In this document: positions 4,440 through 30,574 of the stretch, in pieces
How the letters are laid out: the number at the start of each line of letters is the position of its first letter
Numbering within the stretch: the stretch's first letter is position 1
Source of the DNA: Thermoproteus tenax Kra 1
GTDB lineage: Archaea > Thermoproteota > Thermoprotei > Thermoproteales > Thermoproteaceae
NCBI RefSeq assembly: GCF_000253055.1
Contig: NC_016070.1
Location: 750,001 to 782,000, forward strand
Direction: 5' to 3'
DNA: 32,000 bases
Made by a program: the position numbers and the translations under genes
The notes under the pieces: generated by a model
The model's input: only the letters and a program-made list of their open reading frames with translations
Told to the model about the DNA's origin: nothing
Database searches by the model: none

Positions 4440-4458
4440 GAAAACAAATAATTAGTCT

Positions 4459-4467: not shown

Positions 4468-4469
4468 GA

Positions 4470-4528
4470 ACTTTGTGATGAACACCCTGATCGCAGACCG
4501 GTGAAGTGAGGTATTACAACTGAAAGTC
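4470..4528 (+). ncRNA. Candidate C/D box sRNA
   Basis: Perfect C box GUGAUGA at 4475-4481. A 12-nt spacer follows, then a degenerate D' box CAGA (4494-4497). After a 3-nt loop comes a degenerate C' box GUGAAGU (4501-4507), then a 12-nt spacer and a D box CUGA (4520-4523). A 5-bp terminal stem pairs ACUUU (4470-4474) with AAAGU (4524-4528). The candidate is intergenic, between the PCNA start and the end of the upstream gene. Confidence 0.45.
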
Positions 4529-4623
4529 TCGACCTTTGGGCAGAGAGTACTGACGTCCGTTTTAGCCGCTGGCCAGGATCCAACGGCCCACTGCCTCAAA
4601 TAAAAAGGAGTTTTCGTGGCCGG

Positions 4624-5853: not shown

Positions 5854-5880
5854 GACGAAAAAACAGCTGAGTTATATATA

Positions 5881-6300: not shown

Positions 6301-6362
6301 AAAAGGATATATTATATTCCTATTTAAAAGTTTCTCTATATTTTTCTATATAGTCTATCTTT

Positions 6363-7661: not shown

Positions 7662-7663
7662 GC

Positions 7664-8776: not shown

Positions 8777-8823
8777 GAACTCAACGCGACATATACTTAA
8801 ATCTTTATGGGTCTAACGATTGT

Positions 8824-9099
8824 TCAGATCTTTGACAATTTGAAGAATACTAATGAAGCAATTAGCAATATCGACGACAGAGCCATCGACGGAAACGAGA
8901 CGTCGGGCCCGTGGCCGCGCAACATCCAGAGTGAGAACGAGGCCGCTGCTACAACTGAAAGGACTGCCAAAGCTGCGGTTATGGCGCACATATATCTTCC
9001 TATCTGGGTTCCCCTTATCGGCAGATAGTTCCTCAACGCAAGTAGGGAGAAGAGGGCCGAAAGGGAGGAGAGGGCAATGTCAACGAGCCAGGGAATCAT
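8824..9099 (-). CDS. Small integral membrane protein (about 3 TM segments)
   Basis: 91-aa ORF with three hydrophobic stretches. Its start overlaps the stop of the upstream ArsR-type gene by 20 nt, which suggests co-transcription. Confidence 0.5.
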   Translation of the reverse strand: MIPWLVDIALSSLSALFSLLALRNYLPIRGTQIGRYMCAITAALAVLSVVAAASFSLWMLRGHGPDVSFPSMALSSILLIASLVFFKLSKI

Positions 9100-9325
9100 G
9101 GCCTAAGTATCTGGCGGCCTCCTCCACCAGATCCCAGTTCCTCCTCAACAGATCGTTCACTAGGTATATTGCCCCGTAACCCTCCCCCACCCTCTCCACT
9201 AGGCCGTTCCTCTCTAGCACCTCTAAGTGGTGGCGCACAGTCTTGTAGTCCACGTTTAGCTCCTTGCTCAACTGGTTTGCGTTCATAGGCCTTCGGCTGA
9301 GCGCCAAGAGTATCTTTAGACGCAT
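9080..9325 (-). CDS. ArsR-family winged helix-turn-helix transcriptional regulator
   Basis: HTH region MNANQLSKELNVDYKTVRHHLEVLERNGLV. The start is set at the ATG at 9325 (MRLKILLAL...). The longer 126-aa ORF (to 9460) would overlap the upstream gene, so the true start is uncertain. Confidence 0.7.
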   Translation of the reverse strand: MRLKILLALSRRPMNANQLSKELNVDYKTVRHHLEVLERNGLVERVGEGYGAIYLVNDLLRRNWDLVEEAARYLGHDSLAR

Positions 9326-9416
9326 AGGCCCCCCGCGGGTCCCCAACACGAGGAGGAGCAAAACCCTCCTCAGAGAGCGACGGTCTGGCCACAGACATAG
9401 AAAAAAACAGTAATTT

Positions 9417-10598
9417 TTAATTGACAGGCCCCAGGAATACCCAAGGCACCGGTTTGACAAACTGCGCGTTCAACAGATAGCCATCCCCTCTGATCCAGAC
9501 GTTGGGGAACTTATAGGAGCCGTTGATCAATATCTTAGACTGGCCGTTCGACACAGTTGGGGTGAGCCAGGTCCAGCTGGTCACAGTTCTCGGCAGTATG
9601 GCCACGGTGATAATCGGCGTGGGAGCCCCACTGGCGCCGACGAATGTGGCCGCCGGGCTCACTACGCCGTTGGCTGCGAACGCGTAGGCTCCTAGAGGGG
9701 CCATTCCATCAACGCCGGGCAGATTAAGCGTTGCGTAGTACACCAAGCTGAAGTTATAGGCCTTATAGGTCGAGTTGCCGACCTTCAGATAAGTGCCGGG
9801 AGGCACTACGGCAATGATGTTCCCTACTCTGACAGCGCCCCCCTCTGTGCCGTTGATCCAAGCCTCTGCTATCTCTAATGGGACAAGCCCGCTCTCTACG
9901 CCCGATATATTGACGGCCGGCTTGATTATGCTAAAGCTGAGCGGCCGCTCCGAGCTCTCTGCTACAAATACCCAAGGCACCGGTTTGACAAACTGCAGAT
10001 TGACTTGAACGCCGCCGCCAACGTTGTACCACTGGTCGACGAAGACGTAACGGCCGCCGACCAACGTCCCGTTGGAGAGCTGGCGATAGCCCAGCCAAGT
10101 CCAGCTAGTCCAGGTGCTGGGGATATAGGCCAGTGTTATTATTTGTCTCGGTTTCCCTGACGCGTCCACGAAGGTTATGCTAGGGCTCACTTGGCCATTA
10201 ACAGCGAAGGCGAATGCGTACACGGGCATCCCGCCGTCCGGCGCAAGCCCCACTCCCTTAAGGTTGTAGATCACCAGAGAGAAGTTATATGTCGCAAGCG
10301 TGGAGTTACCGACCAAGGCGTAGGTCCCCGGTCTTATTACTACGATGAGGGGACCCAGCCTGAGCGTGGCGCCCTTTGTGGCGTTGACGACTGTGGAGCT
10401 TGCAGAGACAGGCACTAACTCAGGCGTAGTAGTAGGGACGACCGTCTGAGTGTAGGTCTGGGTCACCGTCTGAGTATAGGTCTGTGTGGTAGTTGTGCTC
10501 TGGATCACCGTCTTGCTCGGGGCTGCATAGTAGCCTGCGATGAACGCAATTACGGCGACTACCACCGCCACTATTATTGTGGTAGTTGTTTTAGTCAT
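9417..10598 (-). CDS. Membrane-anchored surface protein with Thr-rich linker and two tandem ~177-aa paralogous domains
   Basis: The probable start is MTKTTTTIIVAVVVAVIAFIAGYY (ATG at 10598). A TQTYTQTV x2 linker follows. Two homologous domains each end in QFVKPVPWVF and share PGTY..VGNST..YNFSLV...AFA.NG.VSP..TFV.ASG..TSWTWL. Confidence 0.75.
   Translation of the reverse strand: MTKTTTTIIVAVVVAVIAFIAGYYAAPSKTVIQSTTTTQTYTQTVTQTYTQTVVPTTTPELVPVSASSTVVNATKGATLRLGPLIVVIRPGTYALVGNSTLATYNFSLVIYNLKGVGLAPDGGMPVYAFAFAVNGQVSPSITFVDASGKPRQIITLAYIPSTWTSWTWLGYRQLSNGTLVGGRYVFVDQWYNVGGGVQVNLQFVKPVPWVFVAESSERPLSFSIIKPAVNISGVESGLVPLEIAEAWINGTEGGAVRVGNIIAVVPPGTYLKVGNSTYKAYNFSLVYYATLNLPGVDGMAPLGAYAFAANGVVSPAATFVGASGAPTPIITVAILPRTVTSWTWLTPTVSNGQSKILINGSYKFPNVWIRGDGYLLNAQFVKPVPWVFLGPVN
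9437..9465. repeat. 29-nt perfect direct repeat (copy 1) marking the internal domain duplication
   Basis: atacccaaggcaccggtttgacaaactgc is identical to 9968-9996. The copies lie 531 nt (177 codons) apart. Confidence 0.9.
9968..9996. repeat. 29-nt perfect direct repeat (copy 2)
   Basis: Identical to 9437-9465. It encodes the (Q/N)FVKPVPWV end of each domain. Confidence 0.9.
10441..10488. repeat. 24-bp coding tandem repeat (2 units)
   Basis: accgtctgagtgtaggtctgggtc followed by accgtctgagtataggtctgtgtg. On the minus strand these encode the TQTYTQTV x2 linker of the surface protein. Confidence 0.85.
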
Positions 10599-10658
10599 GA
10601 CGTCTCCCCGTTGTACACATAAGTACTTTTTCCAAAAATATACCCAAATTTTTTCCAA

Positions 10659-11486
10659 CTAAAAGATTTCTATGTTTAAGACAATAGGAAGCCCAGAGGC
10701 CAACCTTTCCATGATCAGCCTAGCTAGATCGATGATATATACCTGTCTCACGGCGTAAAGAGCCCTGGCGCCTAGACATGCCAAGCTCCTAGCGCCGTGG
10801 CGGGGAGGCGGTAGAGCCACTGGCACGTTGCGCCAAGTGATTCCGTCCACCGACACCCATATAGGCTTGTTCGAGACCTCATGGACAGCCAGATATCCTC
10901 CGCATCGGCCCACTGCGTGGGTGTACCCAGTGGGCCCTCTGCTCATGTTGAATGTCTCTAGGTCCTTGGTGTAGTATACACCGGTGGACGTCGCTATGAA
11001 TAACCTCCCTAGGTCTGAGAGTAGCGCGTGTAGTTCCCCCCTGAATTTAACGGGGCGGAGCTCGCTCAGATCTGCGCCGGCTAGCAGATTGCCCTCCTCA
11101 ACTGAGGCGACGAGCCTATCTTTAAATAAAACGATGTCGCTAATATGGGCCGGCCCTCTCTTATACCTCCACCCTAGCTCATCCGCATATCCGGTCAAAT
11201 CGGCGACCTTTGCGCCGGATACGGCGTCTACCAGCACGGGCCCTTCCAGCGATGCGATTAAATTATCGCCCAATTTAACGAGTCTCCAACACCCCCCGGG
11301 CGAAATCCTCCTCAACTGTCTCCCTTTGACTTCGTAGACGCCATGGGCGGGGGAGCAAACGTAAAGATGCCCCTCGAACAAGGCCGCGTCCACCACCTCC
11401 AAGTCGGGACAGCATATCCTGTGGGCTCCGCCAGTAGGGATGAGCTCGTAGACGCCCCCCTCGGTGGCCAGAAAAATCCTGTGCAT
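10659..11486 (-). CDS. Hypothetical protein, possibly beta-propeller / BNR (Asp-box)-like
   Basis: 275-aa ORF with repeated ...GGVYE.../...TGVYYT... strands and a near Asp-box (SVDGITW). Its stop abuts the long ORF of the next gene. A TATA-like element lies about 25 nt upstream of the ATG. Confidence 0.55.
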   Translation of the reverse strand: MHRIFLATEGGVYELIPTGGAHRICCPDLEVVDAALFEGHLYVCSPAHGVYEVKGRQLRRISPGGCWRLVKLGDNLIASLEGPVLVDAVSGAKVADLTGYADELGWRYKRGPAHISDIVLFKDRLVASVEEGNLLAGADLSELRPVKFRGELHALLSDLGRLFIATSTGVYYTKDLETFNMSRGPTGYTHAVGRCGGYLAVHEVSNKPIWVSVDGITWRNVPVALPPPRHGARSLACLGARALYAVRQVYIIDLARLIMERLASGLPIVLNIEIF

Positions 11487-18985: not shown

Positions 18986-20404
18986 GTGCAGGCCGTTGAA
19001 ATAGTCGTAGTCGGCTTCATTCTGGCATTCTTCGTAGCCCTCACTTTCTATATGTTCAATTCCATGGCCCCAAGGGCTCAGACAGCTCAAGCGGAGTTGA
19101 ACGTATTGGCTCAACAGATCCTCCAGAGAATAACGTCGTACTCGGCCTACAACCTCTCCAACGACATAGGAATAGCCGACCCGAACGCGCCGGGGTATCT
19201 AAGCGACTACGCTGTAGACTACTTGGCTATGGCGACAGCTCAGCTCTCGGGCTACCCAGCCTGTAACGTCTGGAACCCCAGCAGCACAGTGGCCCAGTAC
19301 GTGGGAGACACAGTATACATGGCCGGCTACGGCTATGTGATCCCGGGCTTGGTCAACGGAAACCTCAACCTCACGGCTATTGCGATCAACTTCTTCGGGC
19401 GCGAGTATGGGAGGTATGACGTGGAGATACAGATAAAGCCTCTGGTCAGGCTCGGCGTCTGTCCCTACGTCGTTATGCAGAACTACGGCGTCACGTTCGA
19501 GAACGCCTTAAGCCCTGTCTGTGCGCAGTTCTATTCTATTATGGGCGCCGGCCTTAAAAACGGCACGGTTTACTTGGTCGCGCGCGGCGCTGGGGCATAC
19601 CCCCAGGGCCAGGTGGCGTACACCGTCTACTACTGTACTACGTCTACTTGCTATCAGCCCTACACAGGGACGGCCACTCTAACGCCGCTGGTCCAGTCCG
19701 GCGGATATTACTATAGCTACGCCGTAGCGGCCCTCCCGCCCTATGTAAGTTTCTCTCAAATCGCCAGTCTAAGTGCGGCGCTCGTCGTCTATGCCCAAAA
19801 GGTGACCTACCCATACAGTGCCGGGTTCTATGTCTTCAACGCTACCTCGGTCTCCCTAATATATGGAGCTCCGTTCCCCGGCTCCGCGTCCACGACGCTC
19901 TACCTCATCCATGACGCCGACTACGTGATCCCCGGCTCCAATCTGCCGTGCGATGGAAGGCTGAGCTCGGCCTCGGGAAGACAGTCTTTGGGCATAAGGT
20001 ACTTGAGCTTGTATACAGGCCAAGGCTTTGTGATCTACGGCTCCAACATAGAGCTCGACCCCGGCACAGGCAACTCCCCCGTTAAGGTGCAACCCTGTAG
20101 CCAATGCACTACCTCGGCCCACTGTACGGCGTGTTGGGCGAGCCTGCCCACCGACACGTTGTTGGCGATCGCCTACGTCACTCCCAGCTCTAGCTCGGGC
20201 AAAATACCGAGCGCTGCCCTCGTCCCCATACCCCTCTTTCCGGCGCCTCCAGCCACCGACGTTGACGTCAAGACGTGGCTCAGATGGGGCTTTACTAAAA
20301 CGCCGAGCACCTATGCCTCATCGGCTTGGGGGGTCTTCAACTCGCTGACGACGACATATCTAGTCAATGTAACCGTCTACGAATATCCCTCGCCGCTCCC
20401 ATGA
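18986..20404 (+). CDS. Pilin/TadE-like N-terminus protein P1 (472 aa), extracellular, sequon- and Cys-rich
   Basis: GTG start. The N-terminus is MQAVEIVVVGFILAFFVALTFYMF, with Glu at position 5 followed by a hydrophobic helix. It contains many N-x-S/T sequons and a C-x2-C-x5-C-x2-C cluster. Its stop overlaps the next ATG (ATGA). Confidence 0.7.
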   Translation: MQAVEIVVVGFILAFFVALTFYMFNSMAPRAQTAQAELNVLAQQILQRITSYSAYNLSNDIGIADPNAPGYLSDYAVDYLAMATAQLSGYPACNVWNPSSTVAQYVGDTVYMAGYGYVIPGLVNGNLNLTAIAINFFGREYGRYDVEIQIKPLVRLGVCPYVVMQNYGVTFENALSPVCAQFYSIMGAGLKNGTVYLVARGAGAYPQGQVAYTVYYCTTSTCYQPYTGTATLTPLVQSGGYYYSYAVAALPPYVSFSQIASLSAALVVYAQKVTYPYSAGFYVFNATSVSLIYGAPFPGSASTTLYLIHDADYVIPGSNLPCDGRLSSASGRQSLGIRYLSLYTGQGFVIYGSNIELDPGTGNSPVKVQPCSQCTTSAHCTACWASLPTDTLLAIAYVTPSSSSGKIPSAALVPIPLFPAPPATDVDVKTWLRWGFTKTPSTYASSAWGVFNSLTTTYLVNVTVYEYPSPLP

Positions 20405-20844
20405 GGTGGATGATCGAGCTGTTGCTCGCCGTTATGTTGGTGGCCTTGGCGGTGTACGCGCTTACTATGATGCCCAAGAGCCCGGTCTCTACAACGATGG
20501 GCAGACAGAACGTGGAGACCGCCTACAATACTTTGCTCCAGCTGTCCCTCAACCCCTCCTTTTTGAGCTCGTTGGAGGGCAGCATATGCTCTCAGAACCC
20601 TCAAGCTGTCAAGGCAATGTTGGACTCAGCAATACCTCAGCCCTACATCTACAACTTCACGGTCTATCTCGCGGGGAGCTCCCCGCCGCCATGCCTCATA
20701 TGCGCCACATGGAATAGCAAGCTCCTATCGGTGGCCAGGCCGACGGGCTGGGCCGGCTCCACGGCGACATCCTCTGCCACAATAGCCGCAGTATTGCCCG
20801 ACGGAACTCAAGTGAAGCTCGTGCTCTATATAGGCAAGCCGTAA
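20401..20844 (+). CDS. Pilin-like protein P2 (147 aa)
   Basis: The ATG overlaps the P1 stop (ATGA). The N-terminus MRWMIELLLAVMLVALAVYALTMM is followed by a small Ser/Thr/Pro-rich domain. It is the smallest member, so it is a candidate structural subunit. Confidence 0.65.
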   Translation: MRWMIELLLAVMLVALAVYALTMMPKSPVSTTMGRQNVETAYNTLLQLSLNPSFLSSLEGSICSQNPQAVKAMLDSAIPQPYIYNFTVYLAGSSPPPCLICATWNSKLLSVARPTGWAGSTATSSATIAAVLPDGTQVKLVLYIGKP

Positions 20845-20879
20845 CGTAAAATATATATTTTTAGAGAAAGGCTCATGAA

Positions 20880-23800
20880 GTGAAGTTTAAGGGTCAGTGG
20901 ATAATACTCACAGCGCTCGCGGTCGTTATTGCAGTGGCCGCCATATATATGGCCTACGTCTCGTCAACTATAGTGCCGGTGGCCTCCATACAGAGGCCGG
21001 CGTATGGCATCATGAGCCAAGACTGGCCCGAGTTAGTTCAGCTCTTGGCAGGGTACGCGCAGTTCCTCGCGCAGAGCGGGGCCTCTAAGGCGTCTATAGG
21101 CGCTCTGGACGCCGGCCTCTACAACAACCTAGTGCTAGCTCATCCGGCGGACGCCTATTTTCAGCTCCGGGTAGCCCAGAGCTTTCTCGGCGCCGCTCTC
21201 TCCTCGGTCGAGCAGAGCTTGCTCCCGCTGGGCACCTTCATTACGGCCAACTTCACGATAGACCAGAGGGGCTTCGGAGGCACCCTTGGCCCATATCCAG
21301 CTGCTCTGAGGCTGAGCGACGCCTATAACTTTACCTATTGGATAAACAGCGGAGCTATGCAAGTCCTCTACGCCTACCGGCTCTATAGATTTGTAGTAAG
21401 CACGCAAGTGCCCGTGCAGACCGACTACGTTATAATATACTCAGCCGACGTCAGAAGGCCGACCTCGGTCGGAGAGTCCTACAGCGTGCCTGTCGAGGAT
21501 ATATTGAACTTGGCCAAGAGCGGGGGCGGATACGATGTGAGTCTGCTTAAGGACAGGATGTACCTCATCCTGGTCAACAACACAGCCTTGGAGCAAGCGC
21601 TCCAGTACCTCGCCAGTCCCGGCTGTACGCCGAGCGGGTTCAGGGTAAGGCTATCGAAGGCCTTCGTACAAATCCCGTGGTGGTCGGAGTATATAAGGTG
21701 CCCCTTCTGTCTGTTCGACTTCAAAATGCCCGCTGGGACTTTAACGGCGCCTGGATACTCAGACGAGGTCATGGTGGTGCTCTTCAGCCAGCCCACCCGG
21801 AGGATACAGTTGGCGTTAAACATACCGCTTATGTTGTACCTCTCCGGCATAAATCCCGCCGGCGTATCGCCTAGTTGTTACTCCGTTTTGAACAACCAAT
21901 ACTCGTTAACTCTAAGGGTAGACCCAACGCTGAACAACAACCCATATGCCGTGTATAATATAGGCGGAGCGGAGTACTTCTATAACGCAGCGGCCATGAG
22001 CGGTTGGCCCAGCTCCATAGTCTATAGTACGTGTCATCAGGTTGGGCCTGAAAACCAGCCGACTCCGATTGAGCAACTGGTCCCAACCTCAGTATACGGA
22101 AACGCCACCACCGGCTTGTTGTTGGGCGCGGTATATCCGCCTGACACATACGATGTTGGATATCAGATATGGACCAGCATGAGCGTGCCCCAGAGCTGGC
22201 CGGGCTTTCAAGTGAGGACTCTCATCAATGTGACTAGCATCGGCTCAGAGAAGATGGGCTATCTCGCGTTGTTCTGGGGAGGCTATGATGGAAGCACTTT
22301 CCCGTGGTGTGCAGACATGATAGCTGTACAGCCCGAGAGCTATCCGCCGACTTTTGTGTGGTCTTATCAGCCCCAAGGGTATTTAACGGGCCCGTGGCAG
22401 ACGTATTCTTGGCAATACGGCGGATCGTACGTACCTCTAAGCTCTAACAGATGGTACGTCCTCTCTATATCGGAGGCGTTACAGGGCAGTAACGTCGGCC
22501 AAGCATATTTGGCCGTCTACAAATTCCTATCAAACTCCTCTGGACCCATGACGCCCTATGTAGGACAGTGGGTCAACTTGGGCACTGCCCTGTATTCTTT
22601 CAATGTTGTGTTGGGCACAGACACTGAGGACTTCCCCCAGTCCGGGGCAACGCCTTGGACCGACGCAGCTATATACGACTTCTTGGCAGTTAGGCCTTGG
22701 GTATATCCGGAGCCTTCGGCCGTCTTGACTACCTTGGGCGCAGCACCGGTGCTTAGTCCGCCGAGACCTACAGTCATAGCTTGGGGCAGATACTCTCTGG
22801 CGAACGCCTCTGTGACGATGCTCGGCAATATCTCCCTGGCCTTGGTGACGGACCTCAATATAACCCAGAGGATAGTGGTGAACGCCTCGACGCGATATGT
22901 CGTGGCCCAGTACTACAGCCCGTTCTATGTTAAATACATCTACGGCGTTTTAGTCAAGTCCAACGTGCCCCGAAGCACGCTAGCGTCCTCTTTCACCCTC
23001 GTCTACAACTACGGCGGAGTCCTCTACAACTACACGTGCGGCGCATCGCCTATGTGCAACCAGACTCTCGTCACATACTATGGGTACTTCAACGGGGTAG
23101 ACAAGGCGTTGTTCAACGTGTCAGTGTTGGTCCCCCGCCACTCCAACTTCGCCGTAGTGCTCAACCTCCTCGGGGCGCAGATCGCTGTGAACAACCTCAC
23201 TGTGGTGCACCCGCAGGTGTACTATCTCTGGAGCGGCAACTCGCTCTACCTGGTCAACGTGGGCAATATGGACGCAGTCTTCTACTTCCCCTGGCAGTCG
23301 GGAGCGCCCGTAGTGGCCTCGATCTTCCCCAACGACGGCGTCTTCGGCGCAGCTATGGATATAGCGGGCAACGGCGGGAGTTGGACGCTTGTCATAGTGC
23401 CGGCTCAAAGCGCAGTTAACGTGACGTTTGCCCCCACATATGTCTCCCAGATACGTCAAGGCTTTCCAAGCGCATATTCGCCGCAGTGGGAGTTGCCCTA
23501 TATATCGGCGATGTCATTTCCCTCCACAAACTGCCGCATCTTACAAGTGTATTTCCCGTCAGAGTACACGGGCGATCACCTCGTACTAGTTCTTCCGCCC
23601 ATTGTACTGGCAAATTTAGGTTTCTCCAACTACCGGAGACTTGCCTTCTACATCTTCTCAAAGGGCTCTTGGGTATCTGTCCCATATGCCATGGCCTATT
23701 GGAACGACGTGTGGCTCCGCATAAATCAATACAGAGGTTGGTTTGCGTATAGAGGCTCTCTTATATCAGTATGTACCGGCGGATCTCCGACATCTATGTA

Positions 23801-24437
23801 TAATATTCTGGATATGTATATACCTAAAACAAGCGGTTCCTACGCCTTCAATCCGCCTATAGGCCTTTCGGCATATCCCAACGGGTTTGCTATAATTATA
23901 AATTTAACTGGAAGTATAATAAATTATGGAAGTCCTGAACAGTATCTTAATTATATTTATTTAGCTAATACTACGAATCCAAGTTATACTTGTATAGAAG
24001 GAACTTACGCCGGCCGGCTCTTGGAGATATGGAACGGGTTCGCTAGCGGTACTCCAGGTTGGACGGATTGGTGGAACCAGTACGCAAGCGTCTGCGGAGA
24101 TCAAAGCGTGTGGACCACGTACGGCTCAGGCGTTGAGACCTATTTCATAATAGCGCTCACGCCTCAATTTGCCAACTTCCACATTGCTACGGAATCTGGA
24201 AACATGCTCAATCCCTACAATATGTGGTGGTACAACGGGTGGCCCAACACGGCGTACAACCCCGCCCTATTTCAGACGACGCCGACATGTAGCGATCCTC
24301 AACAGTGCAACGGCCCTCTGTGGTCCTTCAATTACCTGGTGGTCAGTCCCACGTTGAGCTACGGAATTGATGTAATACCGTATATGTGGCCTCTGCCGTA
24401 CGTGTTATTAGACGGCAATATCTATCAGACGATATGA
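20880..24437 (+). CDS. Giant pilin-like N-terminus surface protein P3 (1185 aa)
   Basis: GTG start. The N-terminus is MKFKGQWIILTALAVVIAVAAIYMAY, a possible class III signal with K-G/Q. The rest is aromatic-rich (Y/W) with dozens of N-x-S/T sequons. No enzymatic motif was recognised. Its stop overlaps the P4 ATG (ATGA). Confidence 0.7.
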   Translation: MKFKGQWIILTALAVVIAVAAIYMAYVSSTIVPVASIQRPAYGIMSQDWPELVQLLAGYAQFLAQSGASKASIGALDAGLYNNLVLAHPADAYFQLRVAQSFLGAALSSVEQSLLPLGTFITANFTIDQRGFGGTLGPYPAALRLSDAYNFTYWINSGAMQVLYAYRLYRFVVSTQVPVQTDYVIIYSADVRRPTSVGESYSVPVEDILNLAKSGGGYDVSLLKDRMYLILVNNTALEQALQYLASPGCTPSGFRVRLSKAFVQIPWWSEYIRCPFCLFDFKMPAGTLTAPGYSDEVMVVLFSQPTRRIQLALNIPLMLYLSGINPAGVSPSCYSVLNNQYSLTLRVDPTLNNNPYAVYNIGGAEYFYNAAAMSGWPSSIVYSTCHQVGPENQPTPIEQLVPTSVYGNATTGLLLGAVYPPDTYDVGYQIWTSMSVPQSWPGFQVRTLINVTSIGSEKMGYLALFWGGYDGSTFPWCADMIAVQPESYPPTFVWSYQPQGYLTGPWQTYSWQYGGSYVPLSSNRWYVLSISEALQGSNVGQAYLAVYKFLSNSSGPMTPYVGQWVNLGTALYSFNVVLGTDTEDFPQSGATPWTDAAIYDFLAVRPWVYPEPSAVLTTLGAAPVLSPPRPTVIAWGRYSLANASVTMLGNISLALVTDLNITQRIVVNASTRYVVAQYYSPFYVKYIYGVLVKSNVPRSTLASSFTLVYNYGGVLYNYTCGASPMCNQTLVTYYGYFNGVDKALFNVSVLVPRHSNFAVVLNLLGAQIAVNNLTVVHPQVYYLWSGNSLYLVNVGNMDAVFYFPWQSGAPVVASIFPNDGVFGAAMDIAGNGGSWTLVIVPAQSAVNVTFAPTYVSQIRQGFPSAYSPQWELPYISAMSFPSTNCRILQVYFPSEYTGDHLVLVLPPIVLANLGFSNYRRLAFYIFSKGSWVSVPYAMAYWNDVWLRINQYRGWFAYRGSLISVCTGGSPTSMYNILDMYIPKTSGSYAFNPPIGLSAYPNGFAIIINLTGSIINYGSPEQYLNYIYLANTTNPSYTCIEGTYAGRLLEIWNGFASGTPGWTDWWNQYASVCGDQSVWTTYGSGVETYFIIALTPQFANFHIATESGNMLNPYNMWWYNGWPNTAYNPALFQTTPTCSDPQQCNGPLWSFNYLVVSPTLSYGIDVIPYMWPLPYVLLDGNIYQTI

Positions 24438-25132
24438 GAGGTCTCGAGGCTCTGGAGGTGGCTATCTTGCTCTCAATATCGCTGGCTATAATTTTCGCCG
24501 CAGTGCCCTACATAATTCAGAACATATTCCAACTGGAGGCAGGGCTTGAGGCCAAGAACGTGATAGCCTTTTTGACCTCTCTGGCGGACTCGTTGGAGTC
24601 AGACTTCGGCATGACCGGCGTCCAGAGGATGTATCAGCTGCCCAGCGCGTACTTTGGGACGTTCTACGTGAGGACGCCGCGCCTCTACGTCTCCATAAGC
24701 TGTGCGTCTCTGTCTGGAACCACGTCAACGACCTTCGTCTTCAGAGAGGCCGTTGTAGGCTATAACTCAAGCTACGCCGAGTTCGGAAACGCCATGTTGA
24801 GGGGTCTCACAGGCTCTCTGCTCGCCCCCATTGGGGAACCGGTCATCGCAGTGAACTCGACTTTCCCAAGCGCTGTGCGTCTCTATACTAGAGTCGTTTA
24901 CGTCAACGGCACATCATCTCTATATCTTTACACAATATCTGCATCCTTCATCCAGCAGGGAACAGGCGGGGCGCTGGCCTACGTGGTCGGACCTCTAAAC
25001 TCCACCTCGCTCACATGCGGCGGCACCGCCGCTGTGACAGTGTCGAGCAGATTGGGCTCTGCCACGGCCACCTTCAACAACGTCCAGACGGTGTACTTGG
25101 TCTGGAACAATGTCACACTAGTCTGGAAATGA
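24434..25132 (+). CDS. TadE/pilin-like protein P4 (232 aa)
   Basis: The N-terminus is MRG-LEALEVAILLSISLAIIFAAVPYII, which has a short basic leader, then Gly, Glu at +5 and a hydrophobic helix. There are ATGA overlaps at both ends. Confidence 0.7.
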   Translation: MRGLEALEVAILLSISLAIIFAAVPYIIQNIFQLEAGLEAKNVIAFLTSLADSLESDFGMTGVQRMYQLPSAYFGTFYVRTPRLYVSISCASLSGTTSTTFVFREAVVGYNSSYAEFGNAMLRGLTGSLLAPIGEPVIAVNSTFPSAVRLYTRVVYVNGTSSLYLYTISASFIQQGTGGALAYVVGPLNSTSLTCGGTAAVTVSSRLGSATATFNNVQTVYLVWNNVTLVWK

Positions 25133-25710
25133 GGGGCATATCAGCTCTCGAGGCCGCAATCCTTTTCGGCTTCCTCGCCCTAGTCTATATAGTTGCGGCC
25201 TATCTGGTCTGGCTGATATCCTACAACTACTTTAGGGATGAGGCATCTGTGACGGCCTCACTCATGGTGAAATATGTGGCGTCCCAAGTGGCGGATTTAA
25301 TGGCGTCCTCTCTAACGCCGGGTGTCAGCTCCATAAGCTACAAGCTATTTCTGCCCACCCAATTCCCCAATTTCGACGCCTATTCCTACTCGATAGCGCT
25401 TATTAACAACGCCACTTCGCCGGGGGCAGTCGCCCTTTACGTCTTAGCCAACTTCTCGGCATATAGGGGCTCCTTCTCGGCGTATGAGTACAACGTGGGG
25501 GCGTTTGCCTATGCGCTCAACGCCACTTTCGCTGGAGTCCAAATCTATGTCACCAACTTCGATAGAGCCATCGGCGGCTCCGCCTGTTTAGTGCCATCGC
25601 CGGTAGTTCCAGGAGCGTATGCGGTCAATTTAACTAAACCTGGTTGTGGAGCCCTCTGGTACGCGCCCACGCCGGCTAACTACAAGCTTCTTACTGTCGT
25701 CAGAGGCTAG
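25129..25710 (+). CDS. TadE/pilin-like protein P5 (193 aa)
   Basis: The N-terminus MRG-ISALEAAILFGFLALVYIVAAYLVW has the same architecture as P4. The ATG overlaps the P4 stop. Confidence 0.7.
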   Translation: MRGISALEAAILFGFLALVYIVAAYLVWLISYNYFRDEASVTASLMVKYVASQVADLMASSLTPGVSSISYKLFLPTQFPNFDAYSYSIALINNATSPGAVALYVLANFSAYRGSFSAYEYNVGAFAYALNATFAGVQIYVTNFDRAIGGSACLVPSPVVPGAYAVNLTKPGCGALWYAPTPANYKLLTVVRG

Positions 25711-25712
25711 CC

Positions 25713-26330
25713 GTGTGGTTGACGGATCCTCTAGAATGGCAGTATATATATACTCTGGCTAAATCCCTTCTCCCGGGTCTTTCGTTTCACAGAGACGAGG
25801 AGGCGGCGGAGCTGGCATCGAGGCTGGGAGGCCTTCCCATTGGCAAGCTGAGGGAATTCGATTGGACTAGGCCCGTCATCTATATGCCGCCCTTCAAGCG
25901 TATAGCCGAGGGCACAGTTGTAGTGGCAGTCGAAGGGCGCACGGCCAAAAAGTTGGCCGGGCTGGGCGTCAGACCTCACGTGGTCGTGACTGATCTAGAC
26001 TTTGAGCCAGACTACATAGACATAGGCCTTATCGCCGTTGTGCACGCTCACGGCGATAATATAGATAGGCTGGCTGAATATGCGCGCGGACTCCGCATAT
26101 ACACAGTCCAAACGCCGCCGAGGCCCAACACTTATAACGTGGGCGGTTTCACCGACGGAGATAGAGCGATATATCTAGCGATAGCCATGGGCGCCCGGGA
26201 GATAATAGTCAGCGGCTTCTACCCCGAGGAGCCCATTAAGCGGAACGACGAGGTCAAAAGGAGGAAGTTGGCGCTGGCTAAGGCGTTGATCAAGCGCCTA
26301 TCCTCACGGGCGTTGCTCAACATGATTTAA
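25713..26330 (+). CDS. DUF115 / MptE-like protein (6-hydroxymethylpterin diphosphokinase MptE / Maf family fold)
   Basis: 205 aa with a GTG start 2 nt after the P5 stop. The VVVTDLD...VVHAHGDN motif pair is typical of the MptE-like (DUF115) family. Confidence 0.65.
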   Translation: MWLTDPLEWQYIYTLAKSLLPGLSFHRDEEAAELASRLGGLPIGKLREFDWTRPVIYMPPFKRIAEGTVVVAVEGRTAKKLAGLGVRPHVVVTDLDFEPDYIDIGLIAVVHAHGDNIDRLAEYARGLRIYTVQTPPRPNTYNVGGFTDGDRAIYLAIAMGAREIIVSGFYPEEPIKRNDEVKRRKLALAKALIKRLSSRALLNMI

Positions 26331-26676: not shown

Positions 26677-28251
26677 GTGAATATTTACAATTTCCTCATG
26701 AAGGGTATTGAGAGAACCGATCTGGATCCGTTGAGATTCAGACAGACAATAAGGCTGTCTCTCCTGGGGGGTTCCGCCCTATTAGCCCTTGGTATATTCC
26801 TGACTCTTGTTAAGGCCTTTCCGATAGGTCCGCTGCTCCTTGGTCTCGGCGTATTCCTCCTCTTCATGCCTAGACTAATCATAAACGTGCGCGCCGCCTC
26901 CATAAGGGAGATGCTCAACATGGAGATCCCGTTCTTGACGGTGCTTGTGCAGATGACCTTTGCAACAAAGGCGCCTTTAGAGCTCGCCATACAGAGGATG
27001 ATGCGATATAGAGAGCTGCCGGGCATCAGAACGCTGGCTACCACTGCGTGGAATAATACGCGCATGCTCGGCATGGAGCCGCTAGACGGATTAAAGAGGG
27101 CCGTTGAGAAGCTGGCCCCTCAAAAGCTGATCTACCGCTTTAACTCACTCTACACAGCCCTAAGGGTCGGGGAGGACATAATAGCGAAGCTCGCCTTGTA
27201 TATGGACATGGACATGGTCGAGTTCTCCTCTGGTATGCAACGGAGGATGGACTCCTTGGTCTCGGCCATATCGGCAACAATAGTGGGCCTAGCAATGGTG
27301 TCTGTCACGGCTGTAGTCGTGGGCAGAGGCAACGCAGGCGTCTTTGTGTTGATGGGAGGCCTCCTACCTGCTGTGATGGGGGCCATAATGGGCATGATAA
27401 TCAACGTCCCGTTATTGAAGATGGACTTCAGAATATGGCCGCTTATCTTCGCCCTGCTGTCGGGCATAACGATGATAATATTGGGCTTCTTCCTGAACTT
27501 CGGCGTGTATACTCCTCTGGCCGCTGCAAGCGTATCCGCCCTAGGCTATTTTCTGACTAAGGAGAAGATAAATGCTAGATCATTTGAGAGAGGCTTCATG
27601 GACTTCTCATACGTAGTTTTGGACGAGCTGAAGCGTTCGCCCTCCGTGGTGCGCGCCATAGAGAACGCAGTAACTTACGGAAACTTCGGCGACTTCACGC
27701 CCAGAGCTGCATCTATGTTGACGGCTATTAAGTCCGGAATATCTGAGCTGGAGGAGGTGGTAGTTAGGGGAATGCAGCCGCTGATGGCCATCATCTCAAG
27801 GATCTTCTTCGACATCCACAGGCTGGGCACTCTTCCCCGCTCAACGATAGACCAACTTCAGAACTTTGTCGCAAAGCTCTTCGACTACAGAGAACAGCTA
27901 AGTAAGTCCTTGGGAATAGTGAGGTTGCTGGCCGTGCTCGGAGCCGCGATGGTGGCCTTCGTCAATGCATCTATGATCATAATGACCCAAGCCATGGCCG
28001 GCGTATCCGGCGGTGGCGCAGCGCCGGTTGCTGGCATGGCCGCCGGCGGCATAGGCATGAACTTCCTCTATCTAGCATTCGGCATGTTGGCCATAGGATA
28101 CTACTTCCTCTTCGCCAAGGTCAGCTTCTCAACGCGCGGAGGCCTTATATATCTCTCCATATTCTACATCTCCATGTTCCTCGTGATCACCGTCACAACT
28201 AGCGTATTAAAGCCGCCGAGCAGCTCCTCATCATCGTTAGGATTGCCATGA
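26677..28251 (+). CDS. FlaJ/TadC-like polytopic membrane platform protein (two T2SS-F-like domains)
   Basis: 524 aa. The start may be the ATG at 26698. Two cytoplasmic helical segments resemble T2SSF domains (EIPFLTVLVQMTFATKAPLELAIQRM...LGMEPLDGLKRAVEKLAP... and a second copy around SVVRAIENAV...). Each is followed by multiple TM helices. Its stop overlaps the ATPase ATG (ATGA). Confidence 0.75.
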   Translation: MNIYNFLMKGIERTDLDPLRFRQTIRLSLLGGSALLALGIFLTLVKAFPIGPLLLGLGVFLLFMPRLIINVRAASIREMLNMEIPFLTVLVQMTFATKAPLELAIQRMMRYRELPGIRTLATTAWNNTRMLGMEPLDGLKRAVEKLAPQKLIYRFNSLYTALRVGEDIIAKLALYMDMDMVEFSSGMQRRMDSLVSAISATIVGLAMVSVTAVVVGRGNAGVFVLMGGLLPAVMGAIMGMIINVPLLKMDFRIWPLIFALLSGITMIILGFFLNFGVYTPLAAASVSALGYFLTKEKINARSFERGFMDFSYVVLDELKRSPSVVRAIENAVTYGNFGDFTPRAASMLTAIKSGISELEEVVVRGMQPLMAIISRIFFDIHRLGTLPRSTIDQLQNFVAKLFDYREQLSKSLGIVRLLAVLGAAMVAFVNASMIIMTQAMAGVSGGGAAPVAGMAAGGIGMNFLYLAFGMLAIGYYFLFAKVSFSTRGGLIYLSIFYISMFLVITVTTSVLKPPSSSSSSLGLP

Positions 28252-29757
28252 GCGCCCGCGGCCTAGGCTTCAAAATAGAGCGATGTCCCGGCGTGCCTGT
28301 TGAAGAGTACGGCGTAGAGGGCGCCCGAATAACCATACATAAGTTCGAAGACGGCTACTGCTATTCGGTCAATTACGCCTTTCCCTATTCAGACAAGGTG
28401 GGCGAATACGTATACAAGATAGTCGAGTACCTCACGGCGAGACAAGTAGTGCGCCCCGATATGACCAGAGAGGAGTTAGGCAAGCTGATCGAGATGGCTA
28501 TGGCCGACGTGGGGGTACCGAAGCCTTTAAGGGCGCCGGTGCGTTTCTACGTCCAACTGGAGGCCGCAGACTACTCCTATCTGACGCCGCTGCTGTATGA
28601 TGTGAAGCTCGAGAACGTCAATATAAACGGGACCGATAATCCAATATACGTCGATCACAGAGATTATGGCTACAATATCAAGACGAACATAGTCCCCACC
28701 GACAAGGAGGTCATATTGAGAATTGTAAGTAGAGTCTATGCGGAGACCGGCAGACCGCTCAACGAGCAGTATCCTATTCAGGACACCTACCTCCGGCTTT
28801 CCAACGGCGCCCTATTAAGGTTCGCCACTGCGATGTCAAATAAGACCTCGCGCAATCCGCCGTATGTCTCAGTCCGTATCCAGCCTCCGGAGCCCATCTC
28901 TCCGACTAAACTCATAAAGAACAAGACCATCTCCGCTCTAGGGCTCGCCTATCTGTGGTATTTGTTCGAGAACCTATCTGTGGTATTTGTTCGAGAATCT
29001 GAAGTCTATAATGATAATCGGAGGCACTGGCTCTGGCAAGACCACGTTGTTGAACGCGTTACTAGTTCTACTGCCGCATAAACGTATAGCCGTAGCTGAG
29101 GAGACTCCCGAGATACGCCTGCCCAAGAGCTTCACAAATTCAGTGCTACTATTCACATCTCCATTATACGACTATCAGAAAAATCTGCCAGGCTCAGAAT
29201 CTGCTATATACCTAATAGACCTTGTCCGCTTCTTGCTCCGCGCGAGGCCGGACATCGTCGTCATAGGGGAGAGCCGCGGCCGCGAGATACACGAACTGAT
29301 CCAAGGAATCTTGACGGGACACGGCGGAGCCACTACGTTCCACGCCGAGGATATGGTGGAGGCGTTCATGAGAATGACTGGGGAGGCCATGGGCGTATCG
29401 CCCGAACACATCTCGGCGTTCAGCGCGGTGGCCGTAGTCAGAAAGTTCGATTGGGGAAGAAGAGTTACATCTCTGACCGAGATAGTTTGGCTTAGAGCGT
29501 ACCCCTTCCCTGCCTTAAACCGCATTAAGATCAAAGAGGAGGAGTTCGGTCTAGTGGAGGTGGGCACCTACGACCGTAATAAAGACACGTTCACGGTCGA
29601 TTTAAAACGCTCCTTCTGGCTCCAGAAGCTTGGAGGCGTTGAGGAGGTTATGGCGCGTGCCGAGCTGCTCCAAGCCTTAGCAGATAAAGGCGTTATAGAC
29701 GCAGAGGCCGTGGCGGAGGCCGTCAGACAGTATTACAGACTGAAGAGGAAGATATGA
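28248..29757 (+). pseudogene. FlaI/TadA/VirB11-family secretion ATPase, reading frame split by a 25-bp tandem duplication
   Basis: The N-terminal part (ORF 28248-29081) ends ...ISALGLAYLWYLFEN and then runs out of frame. The C-terminal part (ORF 28987-29757, in the +1 frame) reads (M)FENLKSIMIIGGTGSGKTTLLNAL (Walker A), then DIVVIGESRGREIHE (Walker B/Asp box) and TGHGGATTFHAED (His box). Deleting one 25-bp copy joins ...AYLWYLFENLKSIMIIGGTGSGKTT... in one frame. Confidence 0.85.
28948..28997. repeat. Perfect 25-bp tandem direct duplication (2 copies)
   Basis: cctatctgtggtatttgttcgagaa occurs at 28948-28972 and again at 28973-28997, with no mismatch and no spacer. Because 25 is not a multiple of 3, this causes a +1 frame change. 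Confidence 0.95.
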
Positions 29758-29972
29758 TACTATATGGTTCTCCGGAGGAGATAAGGGGAGCTTTAGAGGA
29801 TGAGGCCGCCAAACTTATGTCCTTAAAGGGGAAAGACCCACATCTTGATAAATATATAGATAATAAACTGAAAGTATTGAAAGAATGTTTTAATAAACTA
29901 AAAAATATCCATTCTAATTATATACAGATTATTGCGATTTCTTCGTGTGATATAATAGAATTAGGTCAATAG
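29754..29972 (+). CDS. Hypothetical small protein (72 aa)
   Basis: The ATG overlaps the ATPase stop (ATGA). The 3' two thirds are strongly AT-rich. The product is hydrophilic and helical-looking. No family recognised. Confidence 0.4.
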   Translation: MILYGSPEEIRGALEDEAAKLMSLKGKDPHLDKYIDNKLKVLKECFNKLKNIHSNYIQIIAISSCDIIELGQ

Positions 29973-30061
29973 TTTAGCCTCCAGGGTTTGGGCTTTAGCT
30001 GTTGTATCAAGGACCCTCTAGGCGTCCATTAATATATATATTATACTTTAAGCCTATAGTT

Positions 30062-30574
30062 ATGAACTTCGAGATATATCCAGCGTTGCTGATAGCTGTT
30101 TTCACGGCATTAGGCGGCTATATAATAAGAGACCTACAAGCGCTATCGATACTGGTAGCCCTCTCCTCGGTCGCGGCCTTTCTGTTGGCTATATTATTCA
30201 ACGCACCTGCGGCGGTCTTAGGTCTCCTTGGCCTGACTGTGGCGGCCGTGAGGATAATACGAAGGCCGGAGCTCAGAACTTGGAGGCAGAGGATATATAG
30301 ATCGAGGAGGAGACTCGAAGAGCTTGAGGAAATGACAAAACAGCTTTCCCGCATCCATATAATGGACCTAGTTCCGGCGGGATCCAAAAGGGCCATCCAT
30401 CCTAAGTTGGTCGAACTGGTCGATATGGCCGATAAAGCTACATCGTTGGGCTACCAAGTCTCAGAGCCTCAGTGGCTGAAAATCCTGAGAACATATAGGA
30501 GACTACTAGGTTCGCAATTCGAGGCCGAGGCGACGACTATAGTGGGCGAAACCGACGTCTTCGAGCTCGAGTAG
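30062..30574 (+). CDS. Hypothetical membrane protein
   Basis: The start is set at the ATG at 30062 (MNFEIYPALLIAVFTALGGYII), which lies about 20-30 nt after a TATATATATTA tract. It has 2-3 N-terminal TM helices followed by a charged cytoplasmic tail. Confidence 0.55.
   Translation: MNFEIYPALLIAVFTALGGYIIRDLQALSILVALSSVAAFLLAILFNAPAAVLGLLGLTVAAVRIIRRPELRTWRQRIYRSRRRLEELEEMTKQLSRIHIMDLVPAGSKRAIHPKLVELVDMADKATSLGYQVSEPQWLKILRTYRRLLGSQFEAEATTIVGETDVFELE

What the first reader, a model, noticed from the sequence alone, without database searches (positions are those of the whole stretch)
28948..28997. Perfect 25-bp tandem duplication splits the only secretion ATPase of the locus, possibly as a reversible on/off switch
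What the sequence shows:
- cctatctgtggtatttgttcgagaa occurs twice back to back (28948-28972 and 28973-28997) with no mismatch.
- The first copy is read as A-YLWYLFEN in frame 0. After the second copy, the Walker A region (LKSIMIIGGTGSGKTT) is in frame +1.
- Deleting either copy gives one uninterrupted ~500-aa FlaI/TadA-like ORF.

Inference:
- The duplication is evolutionarily very recent, because the copies are identical.
- Tandem duplications of this size are lost at high frequency by slippage or recombination. This could therefore be a phase-variable switch for filament assembly rather than a dead gene.
- Alternatively it is a strain-specific inactivating mutation or an assembly artefact.
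Basis: partly seen in the sequence, partly recalled or inferred. Interest (0 to 1): 0.75.

Follow-up and report, generated by a model that had tools for sequence, protein, structure and literature searches.

The report
Reference-only 25-bp duplication breaking pilus ATPase
The 25-base duplication really is in this sequence (the Thermoproteus tenax Kra 1 reference genome) and really breaks a pilus-assembly ATPase gene, but seven independent public read assemblies of the same strain or species carry a single copy and an intact gene. It is therefore a one-off lesion or artefact of the reference, not a demonstrated genetic switch.

Summary
**Observation: confirmed.**
- CCTATCTGTGGTATTTGTTCGAGAA occurs twice in perfect tandem (28948-28972, 28973-28997). 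Chance expectation is zero.
- It shifts a T2SSE/FlaI/TadA-type ATPase gene by +1, giving a 277-aa and a 248/256-aa ORF.
- Removing one copy restores a 494-aa protein that is colinear with ten orthologues and with solved GspE and FlaI structures.

**Context.**
- The window is the T. tenax Kra 1 reference chromosome.
- The gene lies in one of three putative type IV pilus operons, inferred to be TTX_0887-0898.

**Decisive result.**
- The exact one-copy protein is present in Logan assemblies of four consecutive runs, SRR2760420-23. Those contigs have 0 mismatches to the window apart from the 25-bp gap.
- Three further runs hold T. tenax-like strains (99.3-99.7% nt identity) that also have one copy.
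- The two-copy products occur only in the NCBI reference records.
- The rest of the locus is intact, and the gene has been under strong purifying selection.

**Verdict.** This is a very recent lesion private to the reference.
- Spontaneous tandem duplication in the sequenced DNA: about 0.5.
- Cloning or finishing artefact: about 0.33.
- Programmed phase switch: about 0.08. No repeat tract exists in relatives, so this is unsupported but not excluded.

Interest is low.

The parts
28948..28972 (+). Copy 1 of the 25-bp unit CCTATCTGTGGTATTTGTTCGAGAA. In frame 0 it encodes (A)YLWYLFEN.
28973..28997 (+). Copy 2, identical to copy 1. This is the extra 25 nt (+1 frameshift) missing from all seven independent assemblies; which of the two copies is 'extra' is arbitrary.
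28248..29081 (+). 5' fragment ORF of 277 aa (RefSeq WP_231818774.1, 'hypothetical protein'). It holds the N-terminal domain of the ATPase plus 35 out-of-frame residues and a premature stop.
28987..29757 (+). 3' fragment ORF: 256 aa from TTG at 28987, or 248 aa from ATG at 29011 (RefSeq WP_231818776.1, 'ATPase, T2SS/T4P/T4SS family'). It holds Walker A (GGTGSGKTT), Walker B and the His box.
26677..28251 (+). 524-aa polytopic membrane protein. GenBank CCC81548 names it FlaJ/TadC family; NCBIfam gives weak matches to UpsF, BasF and ArlJ. It overlaps the ATPase start by 4 nt. Intact.
29754..29972 (+). 72-aa soluble protein (CCC81550). It overlaps the ATPase stop and is conserved downstream of the ATPase in relatives. 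Intact.
30062..30574 (+). 170-aa membrane protein (CCC81551), the conserved fourth gene of the module. Intact.
18986..25710 (+). Five upstream genes (472 aa, about 147-172 aa, 1185 aa, 248 aa, about 203-231 aa). Each has an N-terminal hydrophobic segment that looks like a class III signal peptide, so they are candidate pilins or adhesins of the same operon. They are syntenic in several Thermoproteus MAGs and all are intact.
28145..28152 (+). TATA-like TTATATAT, about 33-40 nt upstream of where the SRR2760421/22 contigs begin (28185 and 28187). Possible internal promoter for the ATPase plus 72-aa ORF. This is an inference only.

Best explanation
A single, non-programmed 25-bp tandem duplication arose very recently in the T. 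tenax Kra 1 DNA that was shotgun-cloned for the reference genome. It would be a spontaneous replication or repair error of a kind common in crenarchaea.

**Consequence.** It adds 25 nt (+1 frame) inside the helix that immediately precedes the Walker A loop of the assembly ATPase of one type IV pilus-like module. Translation yields a 277-aa N-terminal-domain fragment without the ATP-binding domain. In that lineage this module's motor is predicted to be dead. That step is inferred, not shown.

**Status.** The lesion is private to the reference. The wild-type one-copy allele is what other datasets of the same strain and species carry. It is an ordinary loss-of-function mutation, plausibly tolerated or favoured in long-term laboratory culture, and not a regulatory device.
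For: **The lesion is real in the deposited sequence.**
- The duplication is perfect and is not a chance match.
- The window is the Kra 1 reference: its ORFs equal CCC81541-52 and WP_231818774/776 exactly.

**One copy is the ancestral, functional state.**
- The 494-aa reconstruction aligns without any indel through the junction to ten orthologues and to A. fulgidus GspE 2OAP (2e-38) and FlaI 4II7 (1e-30).
- Against the nearest other species there are 233-238 synonymous versus 27-28 non-synonymous codon differences, which indicates strong purifying selection.

**Two copies are private to the reference.**
- Contigs from SRR2760420, 21, 22 and 23 have 0 mismatches over 1.3-1.8 kb apart from one 25-bp gap.
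- Strains at 99.3-99.7% nt identity in SRR28178316, SRR28178318 and SRR31758307 also have one copy.
- The nearest other species are only about 77-80% nt identical, so the 0-mismatch contigs are of the Kra 1 genotype.
- The 277-aa and 248-aa products occur only in NCBI records.

**It is recent and isolated.** All other genes of the locus match their orthologues in length.

**A real mutation is plausible.**
- The reference was built from Sanger reads at about 8-fold coverage with Phrap (PMC3189178). A consensus there normally rests on several independent clones.
- The depositors kept the frameshift and bridged it with a join in the CDS.
- Large indels, including tandem duplications, make up about 10-15% of spontaneous pyrE mutations in Sulfolobus acidocaldarius (PMC7785828).
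- Another cultured strain, Thermoproteus sp. CP80, lost the same gene by an independent deletion and insertion.
Against: - Nothing here separates a mutation in the sequenced culture from a lesion acquired in an E. coli clone or during finishing.
- No dataset other than the reference shows the two-copy allele.
- There is no junction microhomology, which replication slippage often leaves.
- The provenance and library type of SRR2760420-23 could not be verified. If they came from the same laboratory culture line as the genome DNA, a fixed mutation would be harder to sustain.
- Logan contigs show only the majority path, so allele mixtures are invisible.
Confidence: 0.5

Rival explanations
1. Sequence artefact. 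T. tenax Kra 1 never carried the second copy. It arose in an E. coli TOPO plasmid clone, possibly selected because the intact gene is harmful to E. coli and left the region thinly covered. Alternatively it was introduced during gap closure or manual finishing and passed into the consensus.
For: - All four assemblies that are otherwise identical to the reference lack the second copy.
- No other public dataset contains the two-copy products.
- The repeat is exactly 2.0 copies with no microhomology, as expected for an end-to-end join of overlapping pieces.
- The remainder of the locus is intact and the gene is strongly conserved.
- The genome was closed by primer walking on bridging clones, and the authors quote a non-zero error rate of under 0.4e-4.
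Against: - Phrap consensus at about 8-fold Sanger coverage rarely produces a 25-bp duplication unless every covering clone carries it.
- The known errors of Sanger-era genomes are mostly single-base errors (own knowledge).
- The depositors evidently noticed the frameshift and kept it, writing a join in the CDS.
Confidence: 0.33
2. Reversible phase switch. Gain and loss of the 25-bp copy toggles the ATPase, and so filament assembly, OFF and ON within T. tenax populations. The reference caught the OFF state and the other datasets the ON state.
For: - Both states exist for what appears to be the same strain: the reference versus SRR2760420-23.
- A perfect tandem duplication can be lost precisely by slippage or recombination, restoring the wild type (established knowledge).
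- The rest of the locus is intact, so an ON revertant would be fully functional.
- Surface appendages are typical targets of phase variation in bacteria (own knowledge).
Against: - There is no pre-existing repeat tract. Every conspecific strain and orthologue has a single unique copy, and the sequence is not conserved at the DNA level between species. Nothing marks the site as a contingency locus.
- The OFF state has been seen once, in the reference only. Seven of seven read-derived assemblies are ON.
- The forward step, de novo duplication of exactly these 25 nt without microhomology, would be rare, so the toggle is not symmetric.
- The other window repeats reported by TRF are short, mostly A+T-rich arrays, and none is comparable.
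Confidence: 0.08
3. The split gene is still functional. Either the N-terminal (277 aa) and C-terminal (248/256 aa) pieces are both made and assemble into an active ATPase, or the frame is restored at the RNA or ribosome level by a +1 programmed frameshift or by excision of 25 nt.
For: - The break falls near the boundary between the N-terminal domain and the ATPase domain.
- An in-frame TTG and an in-frame ATG lie at the start of the 3' piece.
- If SRR2760420-23 are RNA-seq runs, the RNA carries one copy.
Against: - No orthologue is split or frameshifted.
- The RNA around the site has no significant structure and no bulge-helix-bulge motif was apparent in the predicted structure (minimum free energy -20.6 kcal/mol, z = +0.8).
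- No known mechanism removes one copy of a tandem repeat from RNA.
- DNA-derived, metagenome-sized assemblies of conspecific strains are also one-copy.
- The 5' piece carries 35 junk residues, and the helix before Walker A would be duplicated or truncated.
Confidence: 0.02

Closest known systems
Archaeal type IV pilus-like assembly ATPases of the T2SSE/FlaI/GspE/TadA superfamily (A. fulgidus GspE 2OAP, S. acidocaldarius FlaI 4II7, CpaF), with their TadC/FlaJ/UpsF-type platform proteins
   Same: - The one-copy protein matches PF00437 at 1.8e-26, above the gathering score.
- It matches 2OAP at 2e-38 and FlaI at 1e-30, with Walker A, Walker B and the His box aligned.
- It lies next to, and is translationally coupled with, a polytopic membrane protein that weakly matches UpsF, BasF and ArlJ.
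- The upstream genes have pilin-like N-termini.
   Different: - It is not an archaellum FlaI. NCBIfam NF058587 scores 160 bits against a cut-off of 550, and T. tenax has no archaellum operon (PMC3189178).
- The platform protein has no Pfam hit.
- In this window the ATPase is broken by the duplication.
- Which clade of Makarova et al. 2016 (4B, 4E or 4G) it belongs to was not determined.
Spontaneous tandem-duplication frameshifts (ordinary loss-of-function mutations, as in the pyrE mutation spectra of Sulfolobus acidocaldarius)
   Same: - A short perfect tandem duplication inside a coding region causes a frameshift and a premature stop.
- It is present in one lineage only.
- It is precisely revertible in principle (PMC7785828, PMC3139894).
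   Different: - It is seen only in a deposited reference, not in a selected mutant.
- There is no junction microhomology.
- It cannot be told apart from a cloning or finishing artefact with the data at hand.
Bacterial phase-variable contingency loci (repeat-tract slippage in pilus, adhesin and LOS genes of Neisseria, Haemophilus and Campylobacter)
   Same: - A repeat copy-number change inside a surface-appendage gene shifts the reading frame.
- Loss of one unit would restore function.
   Different: - Contingency loci carry a standing, conserved tract of many short units (1-7 nt) that varies among all isolates.
- Here the unit is 25 nt, occurs once in every other strain and species, and the two-copy state has been seen exactly once.

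Membership tests
T2SSE / FlaI / GspE / TadA secretion-ATPase superfamily (PF00437) | Significant match to the family profile over the ATPase core | tested here: met
   The one-copy protein scores PF00437 at E = 1.8e-26 and 93 bits against a cut-off of 24.9. PDB matches are 2OAP at 2.2e-38 and FlaI 4II7 at 1.1e-30.
T2SSE / FlaI / GspE / TadA secretion-ATPase superfamily (PF00437) | Walker A, Walker B/Asp box and His box present and aligned | tested here: met
   GGTGSGKTT, RPDIVVIGESRG and TGHGGATTFHA align to the corresponding motifs of 2OAP and 4II7. They are invariant in ten orthologues.
T2SSE / FlaI / GspE / TadA secretion-ATPase superfamily (PF00437) | N-terminal domain and ATPase domain encoded in one continuous ORF | tested here: not met
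   In the window the gene is split into 277-aa and 248/256-aa ORFs by the +25-nt duplication. It is continuous in all seven other assemblies.
Archaellum motor FlaI (NCBIfam NF058587 equivalog) | Score above the curated equivalog cut-off, with neighbouring archaellum genes (FlaH, FlaJ, archaellins) | tested here: not met
   The score is 160.6 bits against a cut-off of 550. No archaellum-gene family was hit among the window ORFs scanned. The genome paper states that FlaI, FlaH and FlaJ are missing.
Archaeal type IV pilus-like locus | ATPase adjacent to a TadC/FlaJ/UpsF-type polytopic platform protein | tested here: inconclusive
   A 524-aa protein with multiple hydrophobic (predicted membrane-spanning) segments lies immediately upstream. 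It has no Pfam hit. NCBIfam gives UpsF at 4e-10, BasF at 1e-5 and ArlJ at 2e-3, all far below the curated cut-offs.
Archaeal type IV pilus-like locus | Genes for proteins with class III (prepilin) signal peptides | tested here: inconclusive
   Five upstream ORFs have a short charged N-terminus followed by one hydrophobic helix (KFKGQ-WIIL.., MRGLEALEV.., MRGISALEA..). This was judged by eye and a hydropathy scan only; FlaFind was not available.
Phase-variable contingency locus | Standing repeat tract at the site in conspecific strains and relatives | tested here: not met
   The site is single-copy and non-repetitive in seven conspecific assemblies and in all orthologues.
Phase-variable contingency locus | ON and OFF alleles coexisting within one clonal population | tested here: inconclusive
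   The reference has two copies. SRR2760420-23, identical elsewhere, have one copy. These are not the same sample, and minor alleles are invisible in contigs.
Phase-variable contingency locus | Measured high-frequency switching in both directions | not testable with these tools
   This needs cultures, amplicon sequencing or raw reads.
Programmed ribosomal frameshift / recoding site | Frameshift conserved in orthologues | tested here: not met
   All orthologues are in one frame.
Archaeal bulge-helix-bulge intron in mRNA | BHB structure flanking the excised segment | tested here: not met
   The minimum-free-energy fold of 28920-29025 is no better than shuffles (z = +0.8), and no BHB motif was apparent in the predicted structure.
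Assembly / cloning artefact | Absent from independent read sets of the same strain | tested here: met
   Four runs give 0-mismatch contigs with one copy. Caveat: the identity and library type of the runs were not verifiable.
Assembly / cloning artefact | Supported by only one clone or by a manual join in the original assembly | not testable with these tools

The most novel reading that the evidence does not exclude
The 25-bp duplication is a genuine, reversible OFF allele that cycles within T. tenax Kra 1 cultures. The reference would be OFF and the SRR2760420-23 cultures ON. That would be the first example of tandem-duplication-based phase variation of a type IV pilus motor in a hyperthermophilic archaeon.
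Probability: 0.07. Interest if true: 0.7.

Novelty: new member of a known kind. Interest (0 to 1): 0.15.

Why it matters
Mostly housekeeping.

- **Annotation.** The T. tenax type-strain reference misrepresents this gene. GenBank carries an artificial 491-aa join that drops three residues (KSI). RefSeq carries two fragments, one of them labelled 'hypothetical'. The species' real gene is an intact, strongly conserved 494-aa ATPase. Anyone cloning it, modelling it or inferring pilus capability from the reference should use the one-copy sequence.
- **Biology.** If the duplication is a true mutation of the sequenced culture, it would be one more case of surface-appendage loss in a laboratory lineage. 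The independent decay in Thermoproteus sp. CP80 points the same way.
- **Only a read-level demonstration of allele mixtures would make it biologically notable.**

Tried and rejected
- **RNA-level excision (BHB intron).** The fold of 28920-29025 has no structure beyond shuffles. Rejected.
- **Programmed frameshift or two-piece enzyme.** No orthologue shares the split. Rejected as unsupported.
- **Environmental alleles in JGI metagenomes.** Two scans, one allowing either allele and one for the 25-mer alone, gave 0 hits.
- **GTDB genome scan.** It returned 18 related loci but not T. tenax itself, so paralogous ATPases of the same genome could not be examined.
- **Provenance of SRR2760420-23.**
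  - No paper in the library cites these run numbers.
  - The T. tenax RNA-seq paper found (PMC4731332) cites GSE72127, with no run numbers. One further search was uninformative.
  - Library type is therefore inferred, weakly, from two things. Contig numbers are small (467-1723, against 1e5-1e6 in the metagenomic runs). All four contigs are also confined to 28185-30030.
- **Exact-protein look-ups that found nothing.** Several window ORFs (P0010, the thiolase, the 524-aa protein by position) were not on record in the contig index. The reference genome seems not to be indexed there.
- **Junction microhomology as a slippage signature.** None found.
- **Other lesions in the locus (pseudogenisation).** None found. 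The overlapping ORF pairs 24386-25132/25015-25710 and 18986-20404/20326-20844 are explained by over-long ORF starts, since orthologues have the same gene series.

Full report
**1. Observation**

The window contains CCTATCTGTGGTATTTGTTCGAGAA at 28948-28972 and again, immediately after, at 28973-28997, with no mismatch.
- Tandem Repeats Finder reports period 25, 2.0 copies, 100% matches and score 100. It is the only repeat of that quality in 32 kb.
- A search allowing three mismatches finds only these two copies. None of 100 dinucleotide-preserving shuffles gives a match.
- The repeat does not extend by a single base on either side, so there is no junction microhomology.
- The frame-0 ORF 28248-29081 (277 aa) reads ...LAYLWYLFEN, then 35 out-of-frame residues and a stop.
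- The Walker A segment LKSIMIIGGTGSGKTT lies in the +1 frame, in ORF 28987-29757.
- Removing one copy gives a 494-aa ORF.

**2. What the gene is**

- The one-copy product matches Pfam T2SSE (PF00437) at 1.8e-26.
- It matches the solved structures of A. fulgidus GspE (2OAP, 2e-38), S. acidocaldarius FlaI (4II7, 1e-30) and CpaF (about 6e-25).
- The alignment to 2OAP and to FlaI 4II7 runs without a gap straight through the duplication site: LAYLWYLFENLKSIMIIGGTGSGKTT against [26 protein letters not shown] in 2OAP.
- NCBIfam places it nearest FlaI, BasE and TadA, but far below every equivalog cut-off (FlaI 160 bits against 550). It belongs to the superfamily and is not an archaellum motor.

The gene sits in a conserved module.
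- Upstream, overlapping by 4 nt, is a 524-aa polytopic membrane protein. It has no Pfam hit and weak NCBIfam matches to UpsF, BasF and ArlJ. GenBank names it 'FlaJ/TadC family'.
- Downstream are a 72-aa soluble protein and a 170-aa membrane protein.
- This four-gene module is conserved in related Thermoproteus contigs.
- Further upstream, five ORFs (18986-25710) have N-termini that look like class III signal peptides. They are syntenic in several Thermoproteus MAGs.

**3. Where the window comes from**

- The 277-aa and 248-aa fragment ORFs are identical to RefSeq WP_231818774.1 and WP_231818776.1.
- The neighbouring ORFs looked up, seven in all (accessions within CCC81541-CCC81552), are identical to their GenBank proteins of Thermoproteus tenax Kra 1, on a 1,841,542-bp contig.
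- The genome paper lists three putative type IV pilus operons, each with an ATPase: TTX_0962-0973, TTX_1130-1136 and TTX_0887-0898. It states that there is no archaellum operon (PMC3189178).
- Twelve consecutive accessions fit TTX_0887-0898. That assignment is my inference.
- So this is the only ATPase of this locus but not of the genome.
- The depositors' protein CCC81549.1 (491 aa) reads ...FENL|MIIGG... It is a join of 28248-28976 with 29011-29757 that bridges the frameshift and drops KSI. The frameshift was therefore noticed and kept.

**4. Comparison with relatives**

- Ten orthologues (59-95% aa identity: Thermoproteus spp., Pyrobaculum spp. and Thermoproteaceae MAGs) have no indel at the site.
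- At the DNA level none has any repeat there.
- The nearest other species are about 95% identical in protein but only about 79-80% in coding DNA (about 77-78% over the wider aligned locus). There are 233-238 synonymous against 27-28 non-synonymous codon differences. The gene has been under strong purifying selection until very recently.
- All other genes of the T. tenax locus match the gene series and lengths of relatives L017 and L020. There is no sign of general pseudogenisation.

**5. The decisive evidence**

- An exact-sequence look-up showed that the reconstructed one-copy protein exists in the public collection (P0121, source Logan).
- It is encoded on contigs from SRR2760421 and SRR2760422. 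Look-ups through the 72-aa neighbour added SRR2760420 and SRR2760423.
- All four contigs (1.3-1.8 kb) have zero mismatches to the window and one 25-bp gap, that is, one copy.
- Three further runs carry T. tenax-like strains at 99.3-99.7% identity: SRR28178316, SRR28178318 and SRR31758307. Their contig numbers are of metagenome size. All have one copy and an intact 494-aa gene.
- In the stretch where the four SRR276042x contigs have no difference, these strains each differ from Kra 1 at ten positions. The SRR276042x contigs are therefore of the Kra 1 genotype.
- As far as I know, Logan assembles with 31-mers. On that basis a 25-bp tandem duplication cannot be collapsed, because five 31-mers are specific to the one-copy span. 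One-copy molecules were therefore really in those reads. Minority two-copy reads, however, would be hidden.
- No non-NCBI source holds either two-copy product.
- Two scans of JGI metagenomes for the T. tenax sequence found nothing.

**6. What SRR2760420-23 are**

I could not establish this.
- Their contig numbers are small.
- All four contigs lie inside 28185-30030. Two of them start within 2 nt of each other, about 35 nt downstream of a TTATATAT element.
- This looks like a transcript (ATPase plus the 72-aa ORF) from a pure culture, that is, RNA-seq. That is an inference.
- If it is RNA, the simplest reading is still that the template DNA has one copy. The region has no structure, no BHB motif was apparent in the predicted structure, and no mechanism is known that would excise one repeat copy from RNA.

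**7. Interpretation**

The second copy is private to the deposited reference. There are two mundane origins, and they cannot be separated here.

(a) A spontaneous tandem duplication in the culture or DNA used for the genome project.
- The Sanger/Phrap consensus was at about 8-fold coverage.
- The depositors retained the frameshift.
- Large indels, including tandem duplications, are about 10-15% of spontaneous pyrE mutations in S. acidocaldarius (PMC7785828).
- Another cultured strain, Thermoproteus sp. CP80, has lost the same gene independently. It has a frame-shifting deletion of about 476 bp and a 4.75-kb insertion carrying a PaRep2b-family gene.

(b) A cloning or finishing artefact.
- The repeat is exactly two copies with no microhomology.
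- It is absent from every other dataset.
- The locus is otherwise pristine.

I put (a) at about 0.5 and (b) at about 0.33.

**8. The phase-switch idea**

It is mechanistically conceivable, because precise loss of a tandem copy restores the gene. The defining features of contingency loci are absent, though.
- There is no standing repeat tract in any conspecific strain or relative.
- The OFF allele has been observed once.
- The forward event would be rare.

I give it about 0.07-0.08. A functional split enzyme or recoding gets about 0.02.

**9. Verdict**

This is an ordinary frameshifting duplication, or an artefact, in a known genome. The practical consequence is that the reference annotation of this ATPase should be replaced by the intact 494-aa sequence. 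Interest is low.

Noticed in passing
L023 (Thermoproteus sp. CP80, NZ_LCWM02000011.1) 5248-11146: The orthologous ATPase has a frame-shifting internal deletion of about 476 bp (residues about 40-199). About 4.75 kb is inserted between the TadC-like gene and the ATPase start. The insert encodes a 1143-aa PaRep2b-family protein and a TFIIB-repeat protein. This is independent decay of the same module in another cultured strain.
   Followed up: partly
window 28145-30030: Contigs from four consecutive runs (SRR2760420-23) are all confined to 28185-30030. Two of them start within 2 nt of each other, about 35 nt downstream of TTATATAT (28145-28152), which lies inside the 3' end of the TadC-like gene. 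This suggests a separate mRNA of about 1.85 kb for the ATPase plus the 72-aa ORF, and that these runs are RNA-seq. The library type was not verifiable.
   Followed up: partly
window 18986-25710: Five consecutive ORFs have N-termini that look like class III (prepilin) signal peptides, for example VKFKGQ-WIILTALAVV, MRGLEALEVAILL and MRGISALEAAILF. The genome paper says only the other two T4P operons contain pilin-like proteins. None of the five has a Pfam hit, and none of the four scanned against NCBIfam has a hit there.
   Followed up: partly
window 28248-29757: The public annotations disagree. GenBank CCC81549.1 is an artificial 491-aa join (28248-28976 plus 29011-29757) that lacks KSI. RefSeq splits the gene into WP_231818774.1 (277 aa, 'hypothetical protein') and WP_231818776.1 (248 aa, ATPase). 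Neither equals the 494-aa protein found in the other datasets.
   Followed up: yes
window 25713-26330: An MptE-like protein (PF01973, 6-hydroxymethylpterin diphosphokinase-like / DUF115) lies inside the pilus-like operon, between the pilin-like genes and the platform protein. It is conserved there in L017, L020 and L031. Its role in such a locus is unclear.
   Followed up: no
L025, L026, L027-L032 (Logan runs SRR28178316/318/319, SRR31758307, SRR24079460): A natural population of T. tenax-like strains at about 99.3-99.7% nt identity to Kra 1 exists in metagenome-sized public runs. It shows graded amino-acid variants: the TadC-like protein differs from the reference at 2, 3 or 5 positions. These runs could give within-species context for this poorly sampled species.
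   Followed up: partly
window 30030-30061 and 26595: The only other indels between Kra 1 and conspecific strains in 5.6 kb are single bases in intergenic A/T-rich promoter-like stretches. One is an extra A after 30030, next to TAATATATATATTATAC upstream of the 170-aa gene. The other is a T at 26595.
   Followed up: no
L020 2605-6184: In MAG UBA157 the orthologue of the 1185-aa protein is split into 352-aa and 804-aa ORFs. L017 has a single 1247-aa ORF. This is probably a MAG frameshift.
   Followed up: no
window 4000-9000: This stretch has lower G+C (0.42-0.48 against about 0.53). It holds a MoxR-type AAA ATPase (PF20030), a vWA-domain protein, a CBS-domain protein and several A+T-rich short tandem repeats in the intergenic DNA.
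   Followed up: no
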